From IMG/VR virus record IMGVR_UViG_3300025016_000004: 64,000 nucleotides of DNA; one strand, written 5' to 3'. The position numbers and the translations under genes were made by a program. Source of the stretch: a virus. Taxonomy: Duplodnaviria; Caudoviricetes. Every line of letters starts with the position of its first letter. Positions within the stretch are counted from its first letter, which is position 1. Below, one piece after another: positions 10,869-59,975 of the stretch. Under the pieces are notes generated by a model. That model was not told the origin of the DNA. It saw only the letters and a program-made list of their open reading frames with translations, and did no database searches.

Positions 10869-10940
10869 TGCGAGATAACTCAGAGAGTAGAGTGGCCCCG
10901 TGCAAGGGGAGAGTCGGGGGTTCAAGTCCCTCTCTCGCTA
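10869..10940 (+). pseudogene. Degenerate tRNA (TGC-like loop, no G3:U70)
   Basis: Anticodon loop one base short. Confidence 0.55.
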
Positions 10941-10947
10941 CTAATAT

Positions 10948-11031
10948 TGCGGTGTAGTCAGTAGATGGAAGCTTGCGAGGCTCATAACCTCGTGCCGAAA
11001 GGCCCCACGGGTTCGAGTCCCGTTGCCGCTA
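10948..11031 (+). tRNA. trnM: tRNA-Met(CAT), initiator-like, with an extra variable-arm hairpin
   Basis: 1:72 mismatch; CGAGG-CTCATAA-CCTCG; GCC-GAAA-GGC variable arm. Confidence 0.85.
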
Positions 11032-11037
11032 CTAAAT

Positions 11038-11892: not shown

Positions 11893-11979
11893 GGGTGAGT
11901 AGCTCAGTGGGCCAGAGCGGTTGATTGTTAATCAAAGGGCCTTTATAGGTTTACGTGGGTTCGAATCCCACCTTGCCCT
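11893..11979 (+). tRNA. trnN: tRNA-Asn(GTT) with a long variable arm
   Basis: GTTGA-TTGTTAA-TCAAA; 18-nt variable region. Confidence 0.8.
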
Positions 11980-12167
11980 CAAATCTTAATAATTATGGAA
12001 AAATGTAGTTAAAGAATTGGTTCAAAATTTAAGAGCCAGTGGGATTAACGTCACATATTATGATAATCCAAGTAAAGAAAAGATTGAACGTATTAATAAA
12101 CGTTTGGTAGAATTAAGAAAAAGAAATTCCTTTTAGTCCCTGAAGAAATTCAAACTTTAAGGTGCAA

Positions 12168-12989: not shown

Positions 12990-13063
12990 GCCTCCGTAGC
13001 ACAACTGAATAGTGCAACACCCTTCTAAGGTGTCGGTTATAGGTTTGAATCCTATCGGGGGTA
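12990..13063 (+). tRNA. trnR: tRNA-Arg(TCT)
   Basis: Canonical cloverleaf. Confidence 0.9.
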
Positions 13064-13129
13064 CAAATTATGTTTCATAGTCGAATAGTAAGTTTTAACC
13101 TGTCATAGGTGATATGAAACATAACAAAA

Positions 13130-13206
13130 TGGGGTATAACCAGCATGCCTGATACGCATGACCAAGGTAGCGGTTGAAAACGAGGGTTCGAATCCCTCCG
13201 CCCCAA
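13130..13206 (+). ncRNA. Non-canonical tRNA-like RNA, no D-arm, anticodon GAT
   Basis: CATGC-CTGATAC-GCATG; long 3' segment containing TAGCGG; intact T-arm. Confidence 0.65.
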
Positions 13207-13212
13207 CAAAAT

Positions 13213-13301
13213 GCTGGTGTAGCGGTGGGAGCTTATATCTCCTATACCCGTAGAGGTTCTTGAGATAGCATCAAACAAGGGTTCGAACCCCTTCTCCAGT
13301 A
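13213..13301 (+). ncRNA. tRNA-like RNA with an expanded ~20-nt anticodon loop
   Basis: TATCTC/GAGATA stem; T-arm AAGGG-TTCGAAC-CCCTT. Confidence 0.5.
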
Positions 13302-13306
13302 CAAAC

Positions 13307-13383
13307 GGGTCCATATCGGCTCTGGCTCATAACCAGTTGAAACCGTAATTGGTCACATGTGGGTTCGATTCCCTCTGGGCCCA
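13307..13383 (+). ncRNA. Non-canonical tRNA-like RNA, no D-arm, anticodon CAT
   Basis: CTGG-CTCATAA-CCAG; CCGTAATTGG segment; T-arm. Confidence 0.65.
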
Positions 13384-13425
13384 CTTTATTAAATTTGTTG
13401 ATATTTATATAAAAACAATATAAAT

Positions 13426-14028
13426 ATGGCAAATTTAAAAATTTCTGAAGAAGAATTTAAAACAGCAGCTGACTTAATCGGTTGTGAAGTAGCAGTTATA
13501 AAAGCTGTTGCAAAGATTGAAAGTAACGGAAGCGGTTTCAATGCAGATGGTACCCCAAAAACACTTTTTGAGGGACATTGGTTTCATAAATTAACAGATG
13601 GTAAGTACTCAAACGATTCTAGATATGAATCTATTTCATACGCAAAATGGACTCGTAAGTGGTATGGCAATCAAATAGTTGAAAAACAAAGATTAGATTT
13701 AGCTGGTTCTTTGGATAGAGATGCAGCGTTACAATCAGCAAGTTGGGGGGCATTTCAAATTATGGGATTCAATTATAAGTTATGTGGATTTAATACAGTT
13801 CAAGAATTCATTAATGCAATGTATAAAGGTGAGGGTACGCAATTATTAGCTTTTATAAATTTCGTTAAATCTAAAAAATTAGATGATGAATTACGTGATA
13901 AAGATTGGGCCAAATTCGCTTACTACTACAATGGTTCAGGTTATGCAATAAATAAGTATGACGAGAAAATGAAAGCGGCTTACATAAAATTTAAAGCTGA
14001 AGAGGTGGAAGAATTAAAAAAAAAGTAA
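13426..14028 (+). CDS. Endolysin, N-acetylmuramidase (DUF3380-like)
   Basis: AVAKIESNG..F...PKTLFEGH; SASWGAFQIMGFN; YNGSGY. Confidence 0.88.
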   Translation: MANLKISEEEFKTAADLIGCEVAVIKAVAKIESNGSGFNADGTPKTLFEGHWFHKLTDGKYSNDSRYESISYAKWTRKWYGNQIVEKQRLDLAGSLDRDAALQSASWGAFQIMGFNYKLCGFNTVQEFINAMYKGEGTQLLAFINFVKSKKLDDELRDKDWAKFAYYYNGSGYAINKYDEKMKAAYIKFKAEEVEELKKK

Positions 14029-14256
14029 AAGCGAAAGCTGAAGCTTTAATTATTGTTAAACCAAATGTTAATTGGATTAAAAAATTCTGGGAATCAATAT
14101 ATAATTGGAAAAGATAGAAATATAAGTGGAATCAAAAATTAGATAGAATAGTAAATTTTGATGATAATAAAAATAATTCAATCAGAATTCTATACCTGTT
14201 AAAATAAAAAGATAAAAATACTTTGTTTTTTAAAAAACATTTCGTATATTTGCATC

Positions 14257-14448
14257 ATGAGAATAAAAGAAGATTGTCAAGTAATTTATTTGGATAAGGA
14301 TGATTTAACAGCACATGGAGCTATTATGGTCTTTGATGACGTAGGTCTTTTTGATTTTATATTCACAACTAAAAGCCCTATCTTGAAGGCTGATATAGTT
14401 ATCTTCAAAAATAATGGTAAATACAGAGTATTAAAAAGTAGATATTAA
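14257..14448 (+). CDS. Hypothetical protein
   Basis: ORF track; upstream promoter motif. Confidence 0.55.
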   Translation: MRIKEDCQVIYLDKDDLTAHGAIMVFDDVGLFDFIFTTKSPILKADIVIFKNNGKYRVLKSRY

Positions 14449-14519
14449 AATGATAATAATTAAATACGTAACTTTAAAAAAACATGAGCGATTTTAGGTA
14501 CACCTAAAATTAATCATGA

Positions 14520-14756
14520 ATGAAAAAAGTAAAACAAAGTAAAAAAAGATGGGCTTGGACTGAGGCGCAAATAAGAAGATATTGGTCAAGAGGTAGTTGG
14601 TATACACCACCAAGTTGGTTTAGAGAAAATTATCATAGAGCTAACAGGGCATATGAAAGAGCTAAAATAAACAAAATTTTAAATGGTCATATCGATGAGG
14701 ATTCTTACATAGGAACCAAATATCACCCTAGTAGTGCTAAATGGGACTGGACATGA
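14520..14756 (+). CDS. Small basic hypothetical protein
   Basis: ORF track. Confidence 0.6.
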   Translation: MKKVKQSKKRWAWTEAQIRRYWSRGSWYTPPSWFRENYHRANRAYERAKINKILNGHIDEDSYIGTKYHPSSAKWDWT

Positions 14757-14971
14757 GCATCCATCGAAACCGAGCCAAATTTAATAAGGCTTTAACCAGT
14801 ATGGAATATACTAGGTTAATGAAAATGGAAAATGTTTATTGCATAATCTGTGTAAAAAGAGCTGGTAATTATAACGCATCATGTCACCCATCAGTATTCA
14901 ACCCTAGAGGTTGGAGGTGGCGTAGAAAAAGAAATTGGAAAAATAAAAGAAAAACACAATGGAAAAATTAA
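14741..14971 (+). CDS. Small basic hypothetical protein
   Basis: ORF track. Confidence 0.5.
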   Translation: MGLDMSIHRNRAKFNKALTSMEYTRLMKMENVYCIICVKRAGNYNASCHPSVFNPRGWRWRRKRNWKNKRKTQWKN

Positions 14972-15008
14972 TAGATAACACTTCATAGGATTCAATTGCG
15001 ACAAGTAA

Positions 15009-15251
15009 TTGAAGAGTATGAATGCCAAATTAAGAATATGGAGAGTAGTGCCTACCAGTAAGACTGGTGCCAAAGCTCCCTACTTCTTTGTAGAAACAGA
15101 GAAGTTCGAATTGGAAGACGCAGTGATAGAAGCTAATAATTTAGCTAAACAAAACTGCACTTTATCTAGGTTTGATAACTGGAATTTTTCCGTTACCAAA
15201 CAAAGGGTGAGAAAGGATGTTTTAGGAAGATACTGGAAGTATCACCAATAA
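15009..15251 (+). CDS. Hypothetical protein
   Basis: ORF track. Confidence 0.6.
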   Translation: MKSMNAKLRIWRVVPTSKTGAKAPYFFVETEKFELEDAVIEANNLAKQNCTLSRFDNWNFSVTKQRVRKDVLGRYWKYHQ

Positions 15252-15465
15252 AATGTCAGACTGGGTGGGGCAAACCAGCTAAAAAACCCCCGATATTAAA
15301 CAGGTAATATTCCTGAGTAAGTGTGGCGGTGAAACATCTACCATAAGTGTATCTACAAATACTCCACTCTCAGGGTCTGTTTTTTTATGATAAATATAAG
15401 AGAATTTGGTAAAAGTCGTTTTCGAATCCCATTCTCTCTGCTTAACATTTTTAAAAAAGTTTTAA

Positions 15466-15954
15466 ATGAAAGTATTAAAAGAATTTAAAGAACCAACAAA
15501 TGTAGTGATTACAGGTCAATGGGTAGGTGGCGAAGTTGAACCATCATTATCAATTACTGATGATGAATGTATATTAACAGTTAGAAATTTCAAAGGTAAA
15601 AAATTTAATTTAGCAGCATTAGGTAGTATTACGATATTAACCGAAGAACAATTTAATTGGTTTATAGATTCTGACCATTATAAAATGTATTGTGATGATG
15701 ATTTTGGTAATATTGAAGATATGTACATACCCATTAAAGGTTATGTTGGTAATATTGAAGCGGTTGGGGTTACATATGATGGTGATGAGACTGTAGAATG
15801 GGAAATTGAAGATTATTTCTATCACCAAGTTGAAGATGCAAACCTCATACTTGATATTAAAGGTGAATACAATTTCGATTCTATGAATGTGAATGAAGCT
15901 AAGAAGTTTTTGAAGTCTAATGAAATAAGTAAGACTATGATTAATAAACTATGA
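15466..15954 (+). CDS. Acidic hypothetical protein
   Basis: ORF track. Confidence 0.65.
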   Translation: MKVLKEFKEPTNVVITGQWVGGEVEPSLSITDDECILTVRNFKGKKFNLAALGSITILTEEQFNWFIDSDHYKMYCDDDFGNIEDMYIPIKGYVGNIEAVGVTYDGDETVEWEIEDYFYHQVEDANLILDIKGEYNFDSMNVNEAKKFLKSNEISKTMINKL

Positions 15955-16277
15955 CCAACATTAGAAGAAAAGATTAACATCCTTGAGAGAAAAATAGAAA
16001 TCCAAGCGCAACAAATATCGCAACTTTCAAACGCAGTTGATTGGTGTGAAAGAAATATAAAATTAAATTAAGATATAGTAATAGTGAAATTTGGACTGAA
16101 TCAACCAAAGATAAAACAATAGCTAAATTAAAGGATAATGGTGATATAATCAAAATCAAAATCAATGATAAAAAAATTGAATTAGATTATGATGAATTTC
16201 TTGAATTACTAACTATTATGGAAATTAAAAAAAGTAGTGATAAACAATTAAATATAGGCCAAAGTTGGTCTTAATAT

Positions 16278-16313
16278 TACAAGATAGAGCAGAGGTAGTT
16301 TGCGGGACTCATA
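16278..16313 (+). pseudogene. 5' half of an initiator-like tRNA-Met
   Basis: TACAAGA-TA-GAGC-AGAGGTA-GTTT-G-CGGGA-CTCATA. Confidence 0.6.
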
Positions 16314-16328
16314 CAGTTTTAAAAGACT

Positions 16329-16517
16329 ATGAAAAATTATAAATTAGAAAGATTAATGAATGGTGAATCATTCATCACACATGAAAAAGGAAATTCAATG
16401 GTACCACTGATTAAATCAGGACAAGACCATAAATTGGAACCATGTACAATCGATGAAGTGGGTATAAACGACATTGTTTATTGTAAAGTGAAGGGTAAGT
16501 TTTATAAAGGAGCGTAA
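16329..16517 (+). pseudogene. S24/S26 peptidase-like gene truncated by a MITE
   Basis: KGNSMVPLIKSG...DIVYCKVKGKFY, then MITE sequence. Confidence 0.6.
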
Positions 16518-16554
16518 AACCCATTCATCGCTTTAGCGTGGGTGGGTAGTTCAC
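16506..16554 (+). mobile_element. IS200/IS605-derived mini-MITE
   Basis: TTTAT 5' flank; ends in GTAGTTCAC. Confidence 0.82.
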
Positions 16555-16588
16555 ATAGTCCAGATAAAGTTCATACCCACACTTAAAT

Positions 16589-16656
16589 TGGGATAGTTAT
16601 AGGAATACACCATAGGCTCATATCCAGTGGCAAGGCGGTTCGACTCCGCTTATCCC
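16589..16656 (+). tRNA. Degenerate tRNA-Met(CAT)-like gene
   Basis: TGGGATA/TATCCCA acceptor; CT-CAT-AT loop; T-arm; reduced D-arm. Confidence 0.5.
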
Positions 16657-16702
16657 AACAAACACTTTTCAAAATTATTTTATATTTATATAAAAACATA
16701 TT

Positions 16703-17098
16703 ATGGAAAAGTTTATGAAATATTGGCAATTGATTGTAGGTGTACTTGGCGGTACATTAATAGCTGTGTTTGGATGGTTTTATACCCAAGGTCAACAAAG
16801 CAAAGAGTACGAAGGTAGAACATTTGATACCCCAGAACAAAAAGTTTATACAGTTAAAAAAGTAGAAAATTTACCAAGTCCAAAAGAAGAATGGCAAAAA
16901 TATTATTTAGATAGTATAAATAATGTTAGTGCAATTAAATCTAGAAAGGTGAGGGATTCTTTAATGATAGTAGAAAGAAAAGCTAGAGAATATACAGATT
17001 CAATTAATTTATTAAATGCCGACCAGTTGTATCAAACAAAAGAAGAAGTAAAACAAATAAAAAGCGTTTTACAACGATTAGAAAATAGAAGTAATTAA
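16703..17098 (+). CDS. Membrane-anchored coiled-coil protein
   Basis: N-terminal TM helix. Confidence 0.65.
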   Translation: MEKFMKYWQLIVGVLGGTLIAVFGWFYTQGQQSKEYEGRTFDTPEQKVYTVKKVENLPSPKEEWQKYYLDSINNVSAIKSRKVRDSLMIVERKAREYTDSINLLNADQLYQTKEEVKQIKSVLQRLENRSN

Positions 17099-17180
17099 TT
17101 GCGCTTCCCAACGACAGTTTACGGTATTTATTGATTATAGGTGATTTAGATTTATACTATTGCGATGAAGGAAAATAAAC

Positions 17181-17252
17181 GGACTTGTAGTTTAATTGGA
17201 AAAATCTGGCTTTCCTAAAGCTAAGACCTCAGTTCGACTCTGGGCGAGTTCA
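17181..17252 (+). tRNA. trnR: tRNA-Arg(CCT), followed by a 3'-half tRNA remnant
   Basis: TGGCT-TTCCTAA-AGCTA; extra T-arm at ~17262-17288. Confidence 0.75.
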
Positions 17253-17308
17253 CAACTCTAGATTCAGGTTCGAAGCCTGATGGAGTCACTAATATTAACA
17301 AAGTTTTT

Positions 17309-17611
17309 ATGAAGAAAAAAATTTTCTATAGGGTGGGTAATATTACCACTAATCAGGGGTTATGGTATAATATAGATGGTGAGTTCACAGGTCTTATTCA
17401 TAAAGAATTTAATTTTTGTAGAAATAATCTATTACCGATGCCATTTGATGAAAACATTATTGGTTATTTATCGTGTACTGATACATTAGAAAATTTATTT
17501 GAATGGTTTCCAAAAGAGGATATCGTTAGATTAGAAGAACATGGGTATTATCTTAGGGTTTATGAGTCAAAAGATTATAAATTTTACAATAACCATTGGA
17601 TATTTAATTAA
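17309..17611 (+). CDS. Hypothetical protein
   Basis: ORF track. Confidence 0.6.
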   Translation: MKKKIFYRVGNITTNQGLWYNIDGEFTGLIHKEFNFCRNNLLPMPFDENIIGYLSCTDTLENLFEWFPKEDIVRLEEHGYYLRVYESKDYKFYNNHWIFN

Positions 17612-17671
17612 TATAATGCAAAACTAATAAAAACGATTCCAATGGAATTACTTAAAACAAATTAATGAAAT

Positions 17672-18010
17672 ATGTACGAATATAAAGCAAAAATAACATC
17701 AGTTTATGATGGTGATACAGTTACAGCTGAAATAGACTTAGGGTTTAATGTAAAGATAACTGAAAAAATTAGATTACTTAGAATCAACACACCAGAAATA
17801 CGTGGCGCAGAGCGTGAACTTGGTTTAATAACTAGAGATAGGCTTAGAGAATTAATTCTAGATAAGGATGTGGCGATTCACACAATTAAAGATAAACAAG
17901 GTAAATATGGTAGGTATTTGGGTGAGATATTTTTAAGTACTGATGTGGAAACTATAAACATTAATGATTTGCTAGTAACTGAAGGGTTAGCTGAATATAA
18001 AGAATATTAA
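17672..18010 (+). CDS. Thermonuclease (SNase-like)
   Basis: VYDGDT..IRLLRINTPE...GKYGRYL. Confidence 0.88.
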   Translation: MYEYKAKITSVYDGDTVTAEIDLGFNVKITEKIRLLRINTPEIRGAERELGLITRDRLRELILDKDVAIHTIKDKQGKYGRYLGEIFLSTDVETININDLLVTEGLAEYKEY

Positions 18011-18083
18011 AACGTATGGTTGACCACAATACCTTAATTGTGGTAAATGGCGGCATAGCCGAGGGGGTCTTTATAAAATAAAT

Positions 18084-18162
18084 GCGGGTGTAGCCCCGTT
18101 GGTTTTCTAAACCGATAAGGGTAGCGGAGCTGAAAACGTGGGTTCGAATCCCACTGTCGTTA
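18084..18162 (+). ncRNA. Non-canonical tRNA-like RNA, no D-arm, anticodon TCT
   Basis: GTTGGT-TTTCTAA-ACCGAT; TAGCGG segment; T-arm. Confidence 0.6.
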
Positions 18163-18196
18163 CATATTTATTATTAAATAATTTACTTCCAAAAAT

Positions 18197-18234
18197 GGCG
18201 ATGTATTCCCCTAGTCTTCGAAACTAGAGAAGGA
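18197..18234 (+). pseudogene. 5' part of a non-canonical tRNA-like RNA (TCG)
   Basis: CTAGT-CTTCGAA-ACTAG flanked by TCC/GGA. Confidence 0.5.
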
Positions 18235-18244
18235 TTTTAAAAAT

Positions 18245-18324
18245 GGCGGTGTAACCGAGGTGGTCTTCGAAACCATTAAACGTAATTGGAGTTGTAAATA
18301 AGAGTTCGAATCTCTTGGCCGTCA
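18245..18324 (+). ncRNA. Non-canonical tRNA-like RNA, no D-arm, anticodon TCG
   Basis: GTGGT-CTTCGAA-ACCAT; CGTAATTGG segment; T-arm. Confidence 0.68.
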
Positions 18325-18447: not shown

Positions 18448-18508
18448 CTACAATAAACCAGCAATGGGGTTCGAATCCCTCTAGAATCACTATGGCACAT
18501 TTATTGGT

Positions 18509-43776: not shown

Positions 43777-43861
43777 GCACTAGTGCTCCGAGTGGTCGAA
43801 GGGGGTGGTCTGCAAAACCGCCAGAGAAATCTCAACGTTGGTTCGAATCCAACCTAGTGCT
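43777..43861 (+). tRNA. trnC: tRNA-Cys(GCA) with a long variable arm
   Basis: GTGGT-CTGCAAA-ACCGC; U73. Confidence 0.9.
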
Positions 43862-43873
43862 CAAAATAAAAAT

Positions 43874-43959
43874 GCGGCCATAGTTCAGTAGGTCAAGAGC
43901 ACCACCCTTACAAGGTGGGGGCGAATAGTATAACGGGGGTTCGAATCCCTCTGGCCGCA
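43874..43959 (+). tRNA. trnV: tRNA-Val(TAC) with a long variable region
   Basis: CCACC-CTTACAA-GGTGG. Confidence 0.85.
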
Positions 43960-44019
43960 CAACAATTGTGAGGCCATCTGTTATGTTGCAACATAAAATG
44001 ATGGTCTGAATATCTAAAT

Positions 44020-44151
44020 GAGCGTATGGTGAAATTGGTAGCCACGGGGACCTAACCGTCTTAATGACTAGCCGCAGACTTGCCATCTGGGTTGAAGGGT
44101 GAACCCTCTGTTATAGGCATATACGTATAGGTTCGAATCCTATTGCAGTTA
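44020..44151 (+). pseudogene. tRNA-Leu-like gene with a ~55-nt structured insertion
   Basis: Leu-type D-arm and T-arm; inserted hairpins. Confidence 0.5.
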
Positions 44152-47423: not shown

Positions 47424-47514
47424 AACAGTACCAGCGCATAACGGTTGGTGTACCTGACTGTCACTCAGGTTTGGTTTATCCATGTAGCGGGTTCGACTCC
47501 CGTTGTAGTTGCCA
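47424..47514 (+). tRNA. trnD: tRNA-Asp(GTC) with a long variable arm and encoded CCA
   Basis: ACCTGA-CTGTCAC-TCAGGT. Confidence 0.7.
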
Positions 47515-48649: not shown

Positions 48650-48715
48650 GGGGGTATCGTCTAACTGGTTAGGATAGCTATTGGTAAGATATGGGTTCGA
48701 GTCCCATTGTTTCCA
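48650..48715 (+). pseudogene. Glu-type tRNA with a deleted anticodon arm
   Basis: D and T arms intact. Confidence 0.6.
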
Positions 48716-59736: not shown

Positions 59737-59823
59737 CTAGGGGTTAGAGCAGATGGCTAGACTCGCTTGCCTTGGGTGCAAGAGTTAGAAATAACATCGT
59801 GGGTTCGAATCCCACCCCTTAGA
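59737..59823 (+). tRNA. trnP: tRNA-Pro(TGG) with a long variable arm
   Basis: CTTGC-CTTGGGT-GCAAG. Confidence 0.85.
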
Positions 59824-59892
59824 CATGAAAATTTTTTGGATTTTGGTTCAAAATCTTTACTTATGTATAAATTAAAAGAATATATTAAAAAA

Positions 59893-59975
59893 CGGGAAAT
59901 GACCAAGGTAGAATGAAAAAAGGCTACGGGGCCTTGGAAGCTTCAGTATGGTCGGTTCGATTCCGACTTTCCCGA
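59893..59975 (+). tRNA. trnP: tRNA-Pro(TGG) with an enlarged D-region
   Basis: GGGGC-CTTGGAA-GCTTC. Confidence 0.75.

What the first reader, a model, noticed from the sequence alone, without database searches (positions are those of the whole stretch)
13130..18324. Family of tRNA-like RNAs with a rearranged D-domain
At least four complete copies (13130 GAT, 13307 CAT, 18084 TCT, 18245 TCG) and two truncated ones (18049, 18197). They have acceptor, anticodon and T arms but no D hairpin. The bases after U8-A9 pair with a segment just 3' of the anticodon arm, and the pairs co-vary between copies (ACC/GGT, CGG/CCG, CCC/GGG, CG/CG, TCC/GGA), which extends the anticodon helix. A D-loop-like TAGCGG/TAATTGG motif follows, just before the T-arm. 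Inference: an alternative route to the L-shape with the G18G19 elbow contact supplied from the variable position. All anticodons (Ile, Met, Arg) belong to the leader-1 set, so these may be functional nuclease-resistant tRNAs or decoys rather than random decay.
Basis: partly seen in the sequence, partly recalled or inferred. Interest (0 to 1): 0.8.

Follow-up and report, generated by a model that had tools for sequence, protein, structure and literature searches.

The report
Phage tRNAs with a permuted D-domain
These are genes for a conserved, phage-only kind of isoleucine, methionine and arginine tRNA in which the D hairpin has been taken apart and rebuilt around the anticodon arm, a design I found in no paper and that standard tRNA finders miss.

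Summary
It also carries two 5' fragments, at 18049 and 18197.

None has a D hairpin. Ten or eleven nucleotides link U8-A9 to the anticodon loop. The first three or four of them pair with a segment 3' of the anticodon stem. A D-loop-like A-R-Y-Y-G-G-N-N-A then follows, before a short connector and a normal T arm.

I parsed 81 distinct members from uncultured phages and from Streptomyces, Microbacterium and crAss-like phages.
- The new helix is 100% paired, with compensatory changes at all three pairs.
- A Levitt-type R15:Y48 pair covaries.
- A20, the ArgRS determinant, is present in every Arg member and in almost no Ile or Met member.
- CCA is often encoded.
- Anticodons are limited to Ile, Met/Ile2 and Arg, plus one Val.
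- The genes sit in tRNA arrays and mostly supply anticodons that the canonical genes there lack.

My best reading is working decoder tRNAs with a topologically permuted core. Expression, charging and any nuclease resistance are untested. Copy 18084 and the two fragments look decayed. First-reader notes of this scan flagged the same design in another genome.

The parts
13130..13206 (+). Rearranged tRNA-Ile(GAU), 'UAGCGG...UGAAAAC' subfamily. Acceptor 13130-36/13199-205; U8A9 13137-38; new helix ACC 13139-41 with GGU 13166-68; anticodon stem 13144-48/13156-60; anticodon 13151-53; A-rich bulge 13161-65; D-loop-like AGCGGU 13169-74; C48 13181; T arm 13182-98; discriminator A 13206.
   Evidence: sequence; Rfam tRNA 31.5 bits, D arm deleted; R2 56.1 bits; homologues L076:4498, L078:4553, L016:310.
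13213..13301 (+). New helix GCGG 13222-25 with CCGU 13248-51; anticodon 13234-36; D-loop-like AGAGGU 13252-57; extra hairpin 13260-74 with loop GAUAGCA; C48 13276; T arm 13277-93.
   Evidence: Rfam 26.7 bits; R2 45.1 bits; 10 nt between A9 and the loop, G15:C48, U20. No close homologue found.
13307..13383 (+). Rearranged tRNA(CAU), Met or Ile2; type member of subfamily 1. Acceptor 13307-13/13376-82; U8A9 13314-15; U10 13316; new helix CGG 13317-19 with CCG 13343-45; C-U 13320-21; anticodon stem 13322-25/13333-36; anticodon 13328-30; UUGAAA 13337-42; D-loop-like AAUUGGUCA 13347-55; CAU 13356-58; T arm 13359-75; discriminator A 13383.
   Evidence: 46 unique homologues, covariation, RNAalifold gives the same structure; R1 95.2 bits.
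18049..18075 (+). 5' fragment of an Arg(UCG)-type copy: acceptor strand GGCGGCA, UA, then about 18 nt resembling 18245-18271. It breaks off in the anticodon loop. Its acceptor strand pairs 7 of 7 with the 3' strand of the next copy.
   Evidence: (Rfam joins 18049-18162 into one 114-nt match).
18084..18162 (+). Rearranged tRNA-Arg(UCU) copy, probably impaired. New helix CCC 18094-96 with GGG 18119-21; anticodon 18106-08; D-loop-like AGCGGA 18123-28 with A20 at 18128; normal T arm. Its own acceptor strands pair poorly.
   Evidence: (R2 41.0 bits, the acceptor needs a deletion and four G-U pairs). The orthologue L076:9730-9809 has a perfect 7-bp acceptor.
18197..18243 (+). Truncated copy of an Arg(UCG)-type gene. 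It has the acceptor 5' strand, UA, UUCC, an anticodon arm with loop CUUCGAA at 18216-22, and GGA at 18232-34. It lacks the D-loop-like part, the T arm and the 3' acceptor strand.
   Evidence: it resembles the full genes L060:6845 and L071:1473; no stable fold.
18245..18324 (+). Rearranged tRNA-Arg(UCG). Acceptor 18245-51/18317-23; UA 18252-53; weak new helix (A)C(C)G with CGU 18281-83; anticodon 18267-69; D-loop-like AAUUGGA 18284-90 with A20 at 18290; U48 18299; T arm 18300-16; discriminator A 18324.
   Evidence: (R2 49.3 bits); orthologue L076:9618-9696.

Best explanation
These are genes for real decoding tRNAs (Ile-GAU, Ile-UAU, CAU = Met or Ile2, Arg-UCU, Arg-UCG) built on a topologically permuted core.

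Shown by comparison of sequences:
- The acceptor stem (7 bp), the T arm and the 7-nt anticodon loop are standard.
- U8-A9 is followed directly by a 10-nt (rarely 11-nt) strand that runs into the anticodon loop.
- The first 3-4 nt of that strand pair with the segment just 3' of the anticodon stem, across an A-rich bulge on the 3' side.
- After that segment comes a sequence with the consensus of a D loop (A14, R15, Y, Y, G18, G19, N20, N, A21). A 3-nt connector follows, whose last base covaries with R15 like the Levitt pair 15:48.

Inferred:
- The new helix stacks on the anticodon stem to give ten layers. That is the same number as D stem (4) + 26:44 + anticodon stem (5) in a normal tRNA.
- The strand after A9 takes the place of positions 22-25, and the 3' segment takes the place of 10-13. 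The chain therefore leaves the helix into the 'D loop' exactly as in a normal tRNA.
- G18G19 can then meet the T loop and restore the L shape.
- In effect the order 'D 5' strand, D loop, D 3' strand, anticodon arm' has become 'D 3' strand, anticodon arm, D 5' strand, D loop'. A permutation by duplication and loss is a plausible route.
- The host's IleRS, MetRS (or TilS followed by IleRS) and ArgRS charge these tRNAs.
- The family spread among phages and changed specificity by switching the anticodon (plus A20 for Arg) among class Ia synthetases, which read mainly the anticodon.

Why phages keep this design is open. Escape from host tRNA-directed nucleases is one untested idea. In this window 18049, 18197 and probably 18084 are decayed copies.
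For: Distribution:
- Two sequence patterns give 57 + 17 exact hits in IMG/VR viral contigs.
- The first pattern gives only 5 hits in 185,579 prokaryote genomes. All five are MAG contigs, and one has the same length as an IMG/VR jumbo-phage contig.
- Members lie unannotated inside the tRNA arrays of Streptomyces, Microbacterium and crAss-like phages.

Structure:
- In 46 unique sequences the new helix is 100% paired. All 3 pairs show compensatory changes and none shows a one-sided change.
- The whole structure is 97% paired against 65% in shuffles and 35-47% when slid.
- RNAalifold returns the same structure unaided.
- The helix still holds in 60 sequences that include divergent subfamilies.

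Counts over 81 unique members:
- U8A9 is UA in 81 of 81.
- The strand between A9 and the anticodon loop is 10 nt in 74 and 11 nt in 7.
- R15:Y48 is A:U 57, G:C 19, G:U 3, A:C 2.
- The base after GG is A in all Arg members and U in at least 46 of 50 Ile/Met/Val members. A20 is the main bacterial ArgRS determinant and U20 an Ile determinant (PMC9976931).
- The discriminator is A in Ile and Met members and A, G or U in Arg members, as in the bacterial identity sets.
- CCA follows the discriminator in 23 of 81 (chance is 1 in 64).
- Anticodons are only GAU, UAU, CAU, ACG, UCU, UCG, CCU, GCG and CCG, plus one UAC.

Gene sets:
- Microbacterium phage Magritte's annotated tRNAs in the array region examined lack Ile. 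The 181-nt gap between its tRNA-Cys and tRNA-Ala holds a rearranged Arg(UCU) and a rearranged Ile(GAU).
- L075 has canonical Arg GCG, UCU and CCU plus rearranged UCG and CCG.
- None of the 13 loci with a rearranged ACG has a canonical ACG, although they hold up to 33 tRNAs.
- In this window the only AUA and CGA decoders are rearranged copies, and AUA makes up 39% of Ile codons.

Membership of the window copies: R2, built without window sequences, ranks the five copies first.
Against: - There is no evidence of transcription, end processing, CCA addition, modification or charging for any member. No RNA run holds the window, and the RNA-library contigs laid on a crAss-like relative are not decisive.
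- The 3D argument (ten layers, strand swap, elbow contact) is reasoning from canonical tRNA geometry, not a model or a probing result.
- Single-sequence MFE folds do not reproduce the structure, although this is also common for ordinary tRNAs.
- Some phages, this one included, carry a canonical gene with the same anticodon (GAU and UCU here). Redundancy, or a role other than decoding, is therefore possible.
- The statistics ignore shared descent, and the first alignment was gathered with a pattern that fixed parts of the 3' half.
- The helix is weak (2-3 bp) in the 18245 type.
Confidence: 0.75

Rival explanations
1. tRNA mimics that are not used in translation. On this reading they are decoys or sponges that occupy host anticodon nucleases, other tRNA-directed defence proteins or synthetases, or they serve another tRNA-like role.
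For: - Phages are known to counter tRNA-cleaving defences with their own tRNAs (PMC11555353, listed).
- Several phages, this window included, also carry a canonical gene with the same anticodon.
- No charging data exist.
Against: - A decoy has no need to keep a 7-bp acceptor, an amino-acid-specific discriminator, an encoded CCA, A20 only with Arg anticodons, a Levitt-type pair and the exact 10-layer length.
- In most loci the rearranged gene is the only gene for its anticodon.
Confidence: 0.13
2. Decaying or scrambled tRNA pseudogenes, left behind by recombination among the many tRNA genes of this phage and without any function.
For: - The window does hold wreckage: the 5' fragments at 18049 and 18197, a T-arm remnant after 18448, and copy 18084, whose acceptor strands no longer match.
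- ARAGORN rejects all copies.
Against: - The same architecture recurs in more than 80 distinct sequences from phages of at least three host phyla.
- It shows compensatory changes in every helix and invariant tertiary-interaction bases.
- Decay would not conserve these features.
Confidence: 0.03
3. Ordinary tRNAs after RNA-level processing: either a permuted or intron-containing gene whose transcript is rearranged into a normal cloverleaf, or a class II-like tRNA in which the insert forms a plain variable-arm hairpin.
For: - Permuted tRNA genes and tRNA introns exist elsewhere (my own knowledge).
- In 13307 the bases ACC...GGU could form a small hairpin in the insert. Another first-reader note of this scan read it that way.
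Against: - Both acceptor strands are at the ends of the gene, so circular permutation cannot apply.
- Only 10 nt lie between A9 and the anticodon loop, so no excision can create a D arm.
- The bases 37-39 covary with 11-13. They do not covary with the invariant GG or anything else downstream.
Confidence: 0.02

Closest known systems
Canonical bacterial and phage tRNA-Ile, tRNA-Met/Ile2 and tRNA-Arg (Rfam RF00005)
   Same: 7-bp acceptor, 5-bp T stem with a UUCRAxY loop, and a 7-nt anticodon loop with U33 and R37. Also U8, A14, R15:Y48, G18G19, A21, A20 in Arg, the discriminator rules, and genes set in tRNA arrays.
   Different: No D hairpin. The two strands of the D-stem equivalent lie on either side of the anticodon arm, and the D-loop sequence sits between the anticodon arm and the T arm. 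The variable loop is reduced to about 3 nt, and the anticodon-side helix carries a conserved A-rich bulge.
D-armless mitochondrial tRNA-Ser(GCU/UCU) of mammals and nematodes (PMC4394434; PMC7609411)
   Same: No D hairpin, and a short connector of 5-12 nt between the acceptor and anticodon stems. Both are judged to work as tRNAs.
   Different: The mitochondrial forms are serine-specific and organellar. They have lost the G18G19/T-loop elbow contact and are described as flexible. The phage family keeps a full D-loop motif and a Levitt-type pair, has Ile, Met and Arg identity, and must work with bacterial synthetases and ribosomes.
Circularly permuted tRNA genes of the red alga Cyanidioschyzon merolae (my own knowledge, not checked here)
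   Same: The order of tRNA segments in the gene differs from the canonical order.
   Different: There the mature tRNA is canonical after circularisation and processing. Here the ends are normal and the permutation is internal, so it must persist in the mature RNA.
Other non-canonical tRNAs, such as tRNA-Sec and the non-standard tRNAs reviewed in PMC7609411; allo-tRNAs with 8/4 or 9/3 acceptor/T arms (my own knowledge)
   Same: Natural tRNAs that depart from the standard cloverleaf and escape standard finders.
   Different: Those change arm lengths. None moves the D loop or splits the D stem around the anticodon arm, and that review has no mention of phages or viruses.

Membership tests
Canonical tRNA (Rfam RF00005) | Score at or above the curated gathering threshold of 29 bits | tested here: inconclusive
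   13130 scores 31.5 and 13307 scores 29.8 (just above). 13213 scores 26.7 (below). 18245 gets only a tRNA-Sec match of 22 bits. 18049-18162 scores 33.6, but only as a 114-nt composite.
Canonical tRNA (Rfam RF00005) | D stem-loop hairpin between positions 10 and 25 | tested here: not met
   only 10-11 nt lie between A9 and the anticodon loop. Rfam aligns 4 nt where the model has 15, and ARAGORN finds no gene.
Canonical tRNA (Rfam RF00005) | 7-bp acceptor stem, 5-bp T stem with a UUCRA loop, 7-nt anticodon loop with U33 and R37 | tested here: met
   Met in 13130, 13213, 13307 and 18245. In 18084 the acceptor is defective.
Canonical tRNA (Rfam RF00005) | Tertiary-interaction bases U8, A14, R15:Y48, G18G19, A21 | tested here: met
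   All are present and conserved or covarying, but bases 14-21 lie 3' of the anticodon arm.
Phage D-permuted tRNA family (defined here; models R1 and R2) | Helix between nt 11-13 and the 3 nt that precede the D-loop-like motif, enclosing the anticodon arm | tested here: met
   Family. Window copies: ACC/GGU, GCGG/CCGU, CGG/CCG and CCC/GGG. It is weak (2-3 bp) in 18245.
Phage D-permuted tRNA family (defined here; models R1 and R2) | Score with a model built from other phages that clearly exceeds the score of ordinary tRNAs | tested here: met
   89.6, 56.1, 49.3, 45.1 and 41.0 bits for the five copies. All 33 ARAGORN tRNAs of the window score 34.1 bits or less.
Phage D-permuted tRNA family (defined here; models R1 and R2) | Anticodon of Ile, Met/Ile2 or Arg, with A20 in Arg only | tested here: met
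   Window: GAU, UAU and CAU with U20; UCU and UCG with A20.
Mitochondrial D-armless tRNA-Ser | Serine anticodon (GCU/UCU) and loss of the D-loop/T-loop contact bases | tested here: not met
   no Ser anticodon among 81 members, and GG is invariant. Family definition taken from PMC4394434.
Functional (aminoacylated, ribosome-active) tRNA | Mature RNA with CCA, charged by a synthetase, active in decoding | not testable with these tools
   No RNA run holds the window, and contigs from RNA libraries on a relative are not decisive.

The most novel reading that the evidence does not exclude
A naturally occurring tRNA with a topologically permuted core is fully active in translation. The D stem is formed around the anticodon arm and the D loop is relocated to the variable position. 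The design arose once, spread across phages of several bacterial phyla by anticodon and A20 switching among class Ia synthetases, and is kept because the altered D-arm surface lets it escape host tRNA-directed nucleases or surveillance during infection.
Probability: 0.25. Interest if true: 0.95.

Novelty: new variant of a known kind. Interest (0 to 1): 0.85.

Why it matters
The cloverleaf, with its D hairpin, is treated as near-universal outside animal mitochondria.
- **tRNA architecture.** A conserved family that rebuilds the same stacked core and elbow from a different strand order would show that the L shape tolerates permutation of its core. It would also give structural biologists and tRNA engineers a natural alternative scaffold.
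- **Identity rules.** The family is a natural experiment on tRNA identity: one scaffold retuned to Ile, Met or Arg by the anticodon plus A20.
- **Annotation.** Phage tRNA sets are under-counted. For example, Microbacterium phage Magritte appears to lack tRNA-Ile, so analyses of codon usage against tRNA content and annotation pipelines need a model for this class.
- **Defence and counter-defence.** If the design protects against host tRNA-cleaving defences, it would be a new counter-defence principle.

Tried and rejected
- blastn of 13125-13212 and of 13205-13305 against 50,697 phage records found no match.
- A pattern derived from copy 13213 found nothing in IMG/VR, so that copy rests on architecture and its R2 score alone.
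- No whole genome is held for the window.
- No RNA holder is listed for the window.
- Reads laid on the crAss-like locus L031 were contigs only. Contigs from a transcriptome of a relative carry 74 other letters in place of the 78-nt slot. One contig from a wastewater RNA library spans the gene. Neither shows transcription.
- Single-sequence MFE folds do not give the family structure and have weak z-scores. They were not used as evidence.
- Model R1, built from the pattern hits alone, did not separate the divergent window copies from ordinary tRNAs. This was resolved with R2.
- Nine literature searches found no description of the design. This covers only the held library.
- Considered and rejected: a variable-arm hairpin in the insert, an intron or a permuted-gene processing route, and random decay for the family as a whole.

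Full report
**What is in the window.** The window is AT-rich (31% GC) phage DNA. ARAGORN tRNA genes in it. No whole genome is held. The same stretch occurs in groundwater and aquifer metagenomes.

ARAGORN calls none of the flagged elements. Rfam's tRNA model does match them: 13130-13206 (31.5 bits), 13307-13383 (29.8), 13213-13301 (26.7) and 18049-18162 (33.6). Each alignment deletes the D arm (4 nt where the model has 15) and inserts 18-30 nt into the variable region.

Read directly, each full copy has these parts in order:
- a 7-nt acceptor strand, then U-A;
- 10 or 11 nt that run straight into a 7-nt anticodon loop (GAU, UAU, CAU, UCU or UCG);
- the returning anticodon strand, then a few mostly A-rich unpaired bases;
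- 3-4 nt complementary to the bases right after U-A;
- a D-loop-like UAGCGG, UAAUUGG or UAGAGG;
- a short connector, a standard T arm and the acceptor 3' strand.

It missed the copy at 13213-13301.

**The design is a conserved family.** blastn of the CAU copy hit unannotated gaps in the tRNA arrays of 44 Streptomyces phage records, two Microbacterium phage records and crAss-like phages. A pattern taken from four such sequences, which leaves the anticodon and the new helix free, found 57 stretches in IMG/VR. These gave 46 distinct 77-nt sequences with no length variation.

On that alignment the helix 11-13/37-39 is paired in 100% of sequences. Its pair types are CG/AU/UA/GC, CG/GC/UA/AU and CG/GC/AU, with no one-sided change. 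The whole structure is 97% paired, against 65% in shuffles and 35-47% when the partners are slid. RNAalifold, given only the alignment, returns exactly this structure.

A second pattern, from copies 13130 and 18084, found 17 more stretches. A covariance model then recovered further divergent members in the fetched loci, often two to five per phage. In 60 sequences that include these divergent members, the helix is still 96.6% paired, with compensatory change at all three pairs. That alignment was fitted to the model, so the count leans toward the structure.

The first pattern occurs only five times in one genome each of 185,579 prokaryote species. All five are on MAG contigs, and one has the same length (362,763 bp) as an IMG/VR jumbo-phage contig. 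The family therefore looks phage-restricted.

**The window copies belong to the family.** Model R2 was built only from other phages' sequences. It ranks the five window copies first, at 89.6, 56.1, 49.3, 45.1 and 41.0 bits. Every ordinary tRNA of the window scores 34 bits or less. A 152-kb IMG/VR phage (L076) carries corresponding members: GAU, GAU with an extra arm, and UAU in one cluster; UCG and UCU in another.

**Evidence that the relocated motif acts as a D loop.** The following counts are over 81 distinct members.
- U8-A9 is UA in all 81.
- The strand between A9 and the anticodon loop is 10 nt in 74 and 11 nt in 7.
- The GG is invariant.
- The purine two bases after the helix (position 15) covaries with the base just before the T stem (position 48): A:U 57, G:C 19, G:U 3, A:C 2. 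This is the pattern of the Levitt pair.
- The base after GG (position 20) is A in every Arg member and U in at least 46 of 50 Ile, Met and Val members. Some of the apparent exceptions are mis-parses by my script.

A20 with C35 and U/G36 is the bacterial arginine identity set. U20, A73 and the anticodon belong to the isoleucine set (PMC9976931). Discriminators follow the same rules: A in Ile and Met members, and A, G or U in Arg members. CCA is encoded right after the discriminator in 23 of 81 members. The p-values from these counts are very small, but they ignore shared descent.

**Inferred geometry.** With the A-rich bulge looped out, the new helix (3 pairs plus a U-U or A-U end layer) makes four layers. 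Two non-Watson-Crick layers and the 4-bp anticodon stem bring the total to ten. In the other subfamily the count is 3 + 2 + 5, again ten. A normal tRNA also has ten: D stem (4) + 26:44 + anticodon stem (5).

The strand after A9 would occupy the place of 22-25, and the 3' segment the place of 10-13. The chain would then leave the helix into the 'D loop' just as it does in a normal tRNA. This rests on textbook tRNA geometry and has not been modelled or probed.

**Evidence that they decode.** The genes sit in tRNA arrays at tRNA-like spacing. In this window the three genes at 13130-13383 are separated by only 6 and 5 nt.
- Among the annotated tRNAs of Microbacterium phage Magritte in the array region I examined, there is none for Ile. 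The 181-nt gap between its tRNA-Cys and tRNA-Ala holds a rearranged Arg(UCU) and a rearranged Ile(GAU).
- L075 has canonical Arg GCG, UCU and CCU plus rearranged UCG and CCG.
- Of 83 members, only 17 share a locus with a canonical gene of the same anticodon. Many of these are CAU, which is ambiguous between Met and Ile2.
- None of the 13 loci with a rearranged ACG has a canonical ACG. Fisher's exact test gives p = 0.05.
- In this window the rearranged copies are the only candidate AUA and CGA decoders. AUA makes up 39% of Ile codons in the long ORFs.

**Restricted repertoire.** Only Ile, Met/Ile2 and Arg anticodons occur, plus one Val. All are served by class Ia synthetases, which rely mainly on the anticodon, plus A20 for Arg (PMC9976931). 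I read this as one scaffold that radiated by anticodon switching. From memory, this mirrors classical anticodon-switch experiments by Schulman and Pelka, which I did not check here. The CAU members share the TCGG/CCGT helix with UAU members, so they may be Ile2 rather than Met. This is open.

**Decay inside the window.**
- 18049-18075 is a 5' fragment.
- 18197-18243 lacks everything after the helix.
- Copy 18084's own acceptor strands pair badly, while the 18049 strand pairs 7 of 7 with its 3' strand. Its L076 orthologue has a perfect stem.
- A canonical Arg(UCU) gene at 12990 makes that loss tolerable.

**What is not shown.** Transcription, processing, charging and any resistance to nucleases are all untested. 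A decoy role is not excluded, but it does not explain the retained identity elements or the complementarity with canonical sets.

**Novelty.** Nine searches of the held literature found no description of this design. A review of non-canonical tRNAs does not mention phages at all. D-armless tRNAs are known from animal mitochondria, but those lose the elbow contact and are serine-specific (PMC4394434; PMC7609411).

Two first-reader notes of this scan flagged the same design in another genome, with no follow-up shown.

Noticed in passing
window 13260-13274 (inside copy 13213-13301); L076:4580-4670: The Ile(UAU) copy has an extra hairpin after the D-loop-like motif, and its loop, GAUAGCA, displays GAUA. 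L076 has a 91-nt member with an extra segment containing CGAUAAC. Earlier notes of this scan describe phage tRNA-Ile(UAU) genes with a second hairpin that shows the GAU anticodon. It may be a handle for IleRS.
   Followed up: partly
window 10948-11032, 11893-11980, 43777-43862, 43874-43960, 47424-47514, 59737-59824: ARAGORN calls tRNAs that normally have short variable loops (Met, Asn, Cys, Val, Asp, Pro) as 85-91-nt genes with long variable arms. They often lie beside a normal-length gene of the same anticodon.
   Followed up: no
L069:7736-7811: A tRNA-Ser(GCU)-like gene with only about 7 nt in place of the D arm and a long variable-arm hairpin. It resembles the mitochondrial D-armless tRNA-Ser, but it sits in a phage contig.
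   Followed up: no
window 17254-17290 and 18449-18495: T-arm-plus-acceptor remnants directly after the canonical tRNA-Arg(CCU) and tRNA-Arg(ACG) genes. The first can form an acceptor/T minihelix.
   Followed up: no
window 48650-48715, 10869-10940, 16589-16658, 59893-59975, 44070-44151: Further tRNA-like elements with good acceptor and T arms that ARAGORN does not call. The family models hit them at 18-27 bits.
   Followed up: no
L031:2765-2842 (crAss-like phage, IMG/VR): In RNA-library contigs of a related phage ('organism A'), the 78-nt slot of the rearranged Ile(GAU) gene holds 74 different letters between conserved flanks. The slot therefore appears to be exchanged between relatives.
   Followed up: no
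window 13066-13125: A near-perfect inverted repeat (ATGTTTCATA...TATGAAACAT) fills the spacer between the canonical tRNA-Arg(UCU) gene and the first rearranged gene.
   Followed up: no
L083 (Microbacterium phage Magritte, record 76553-78184): A gene for a Ro-like RNA-binding protein lies just downstream of the tRNA array that holds two rearranged tRNAs.
   Followed up: no
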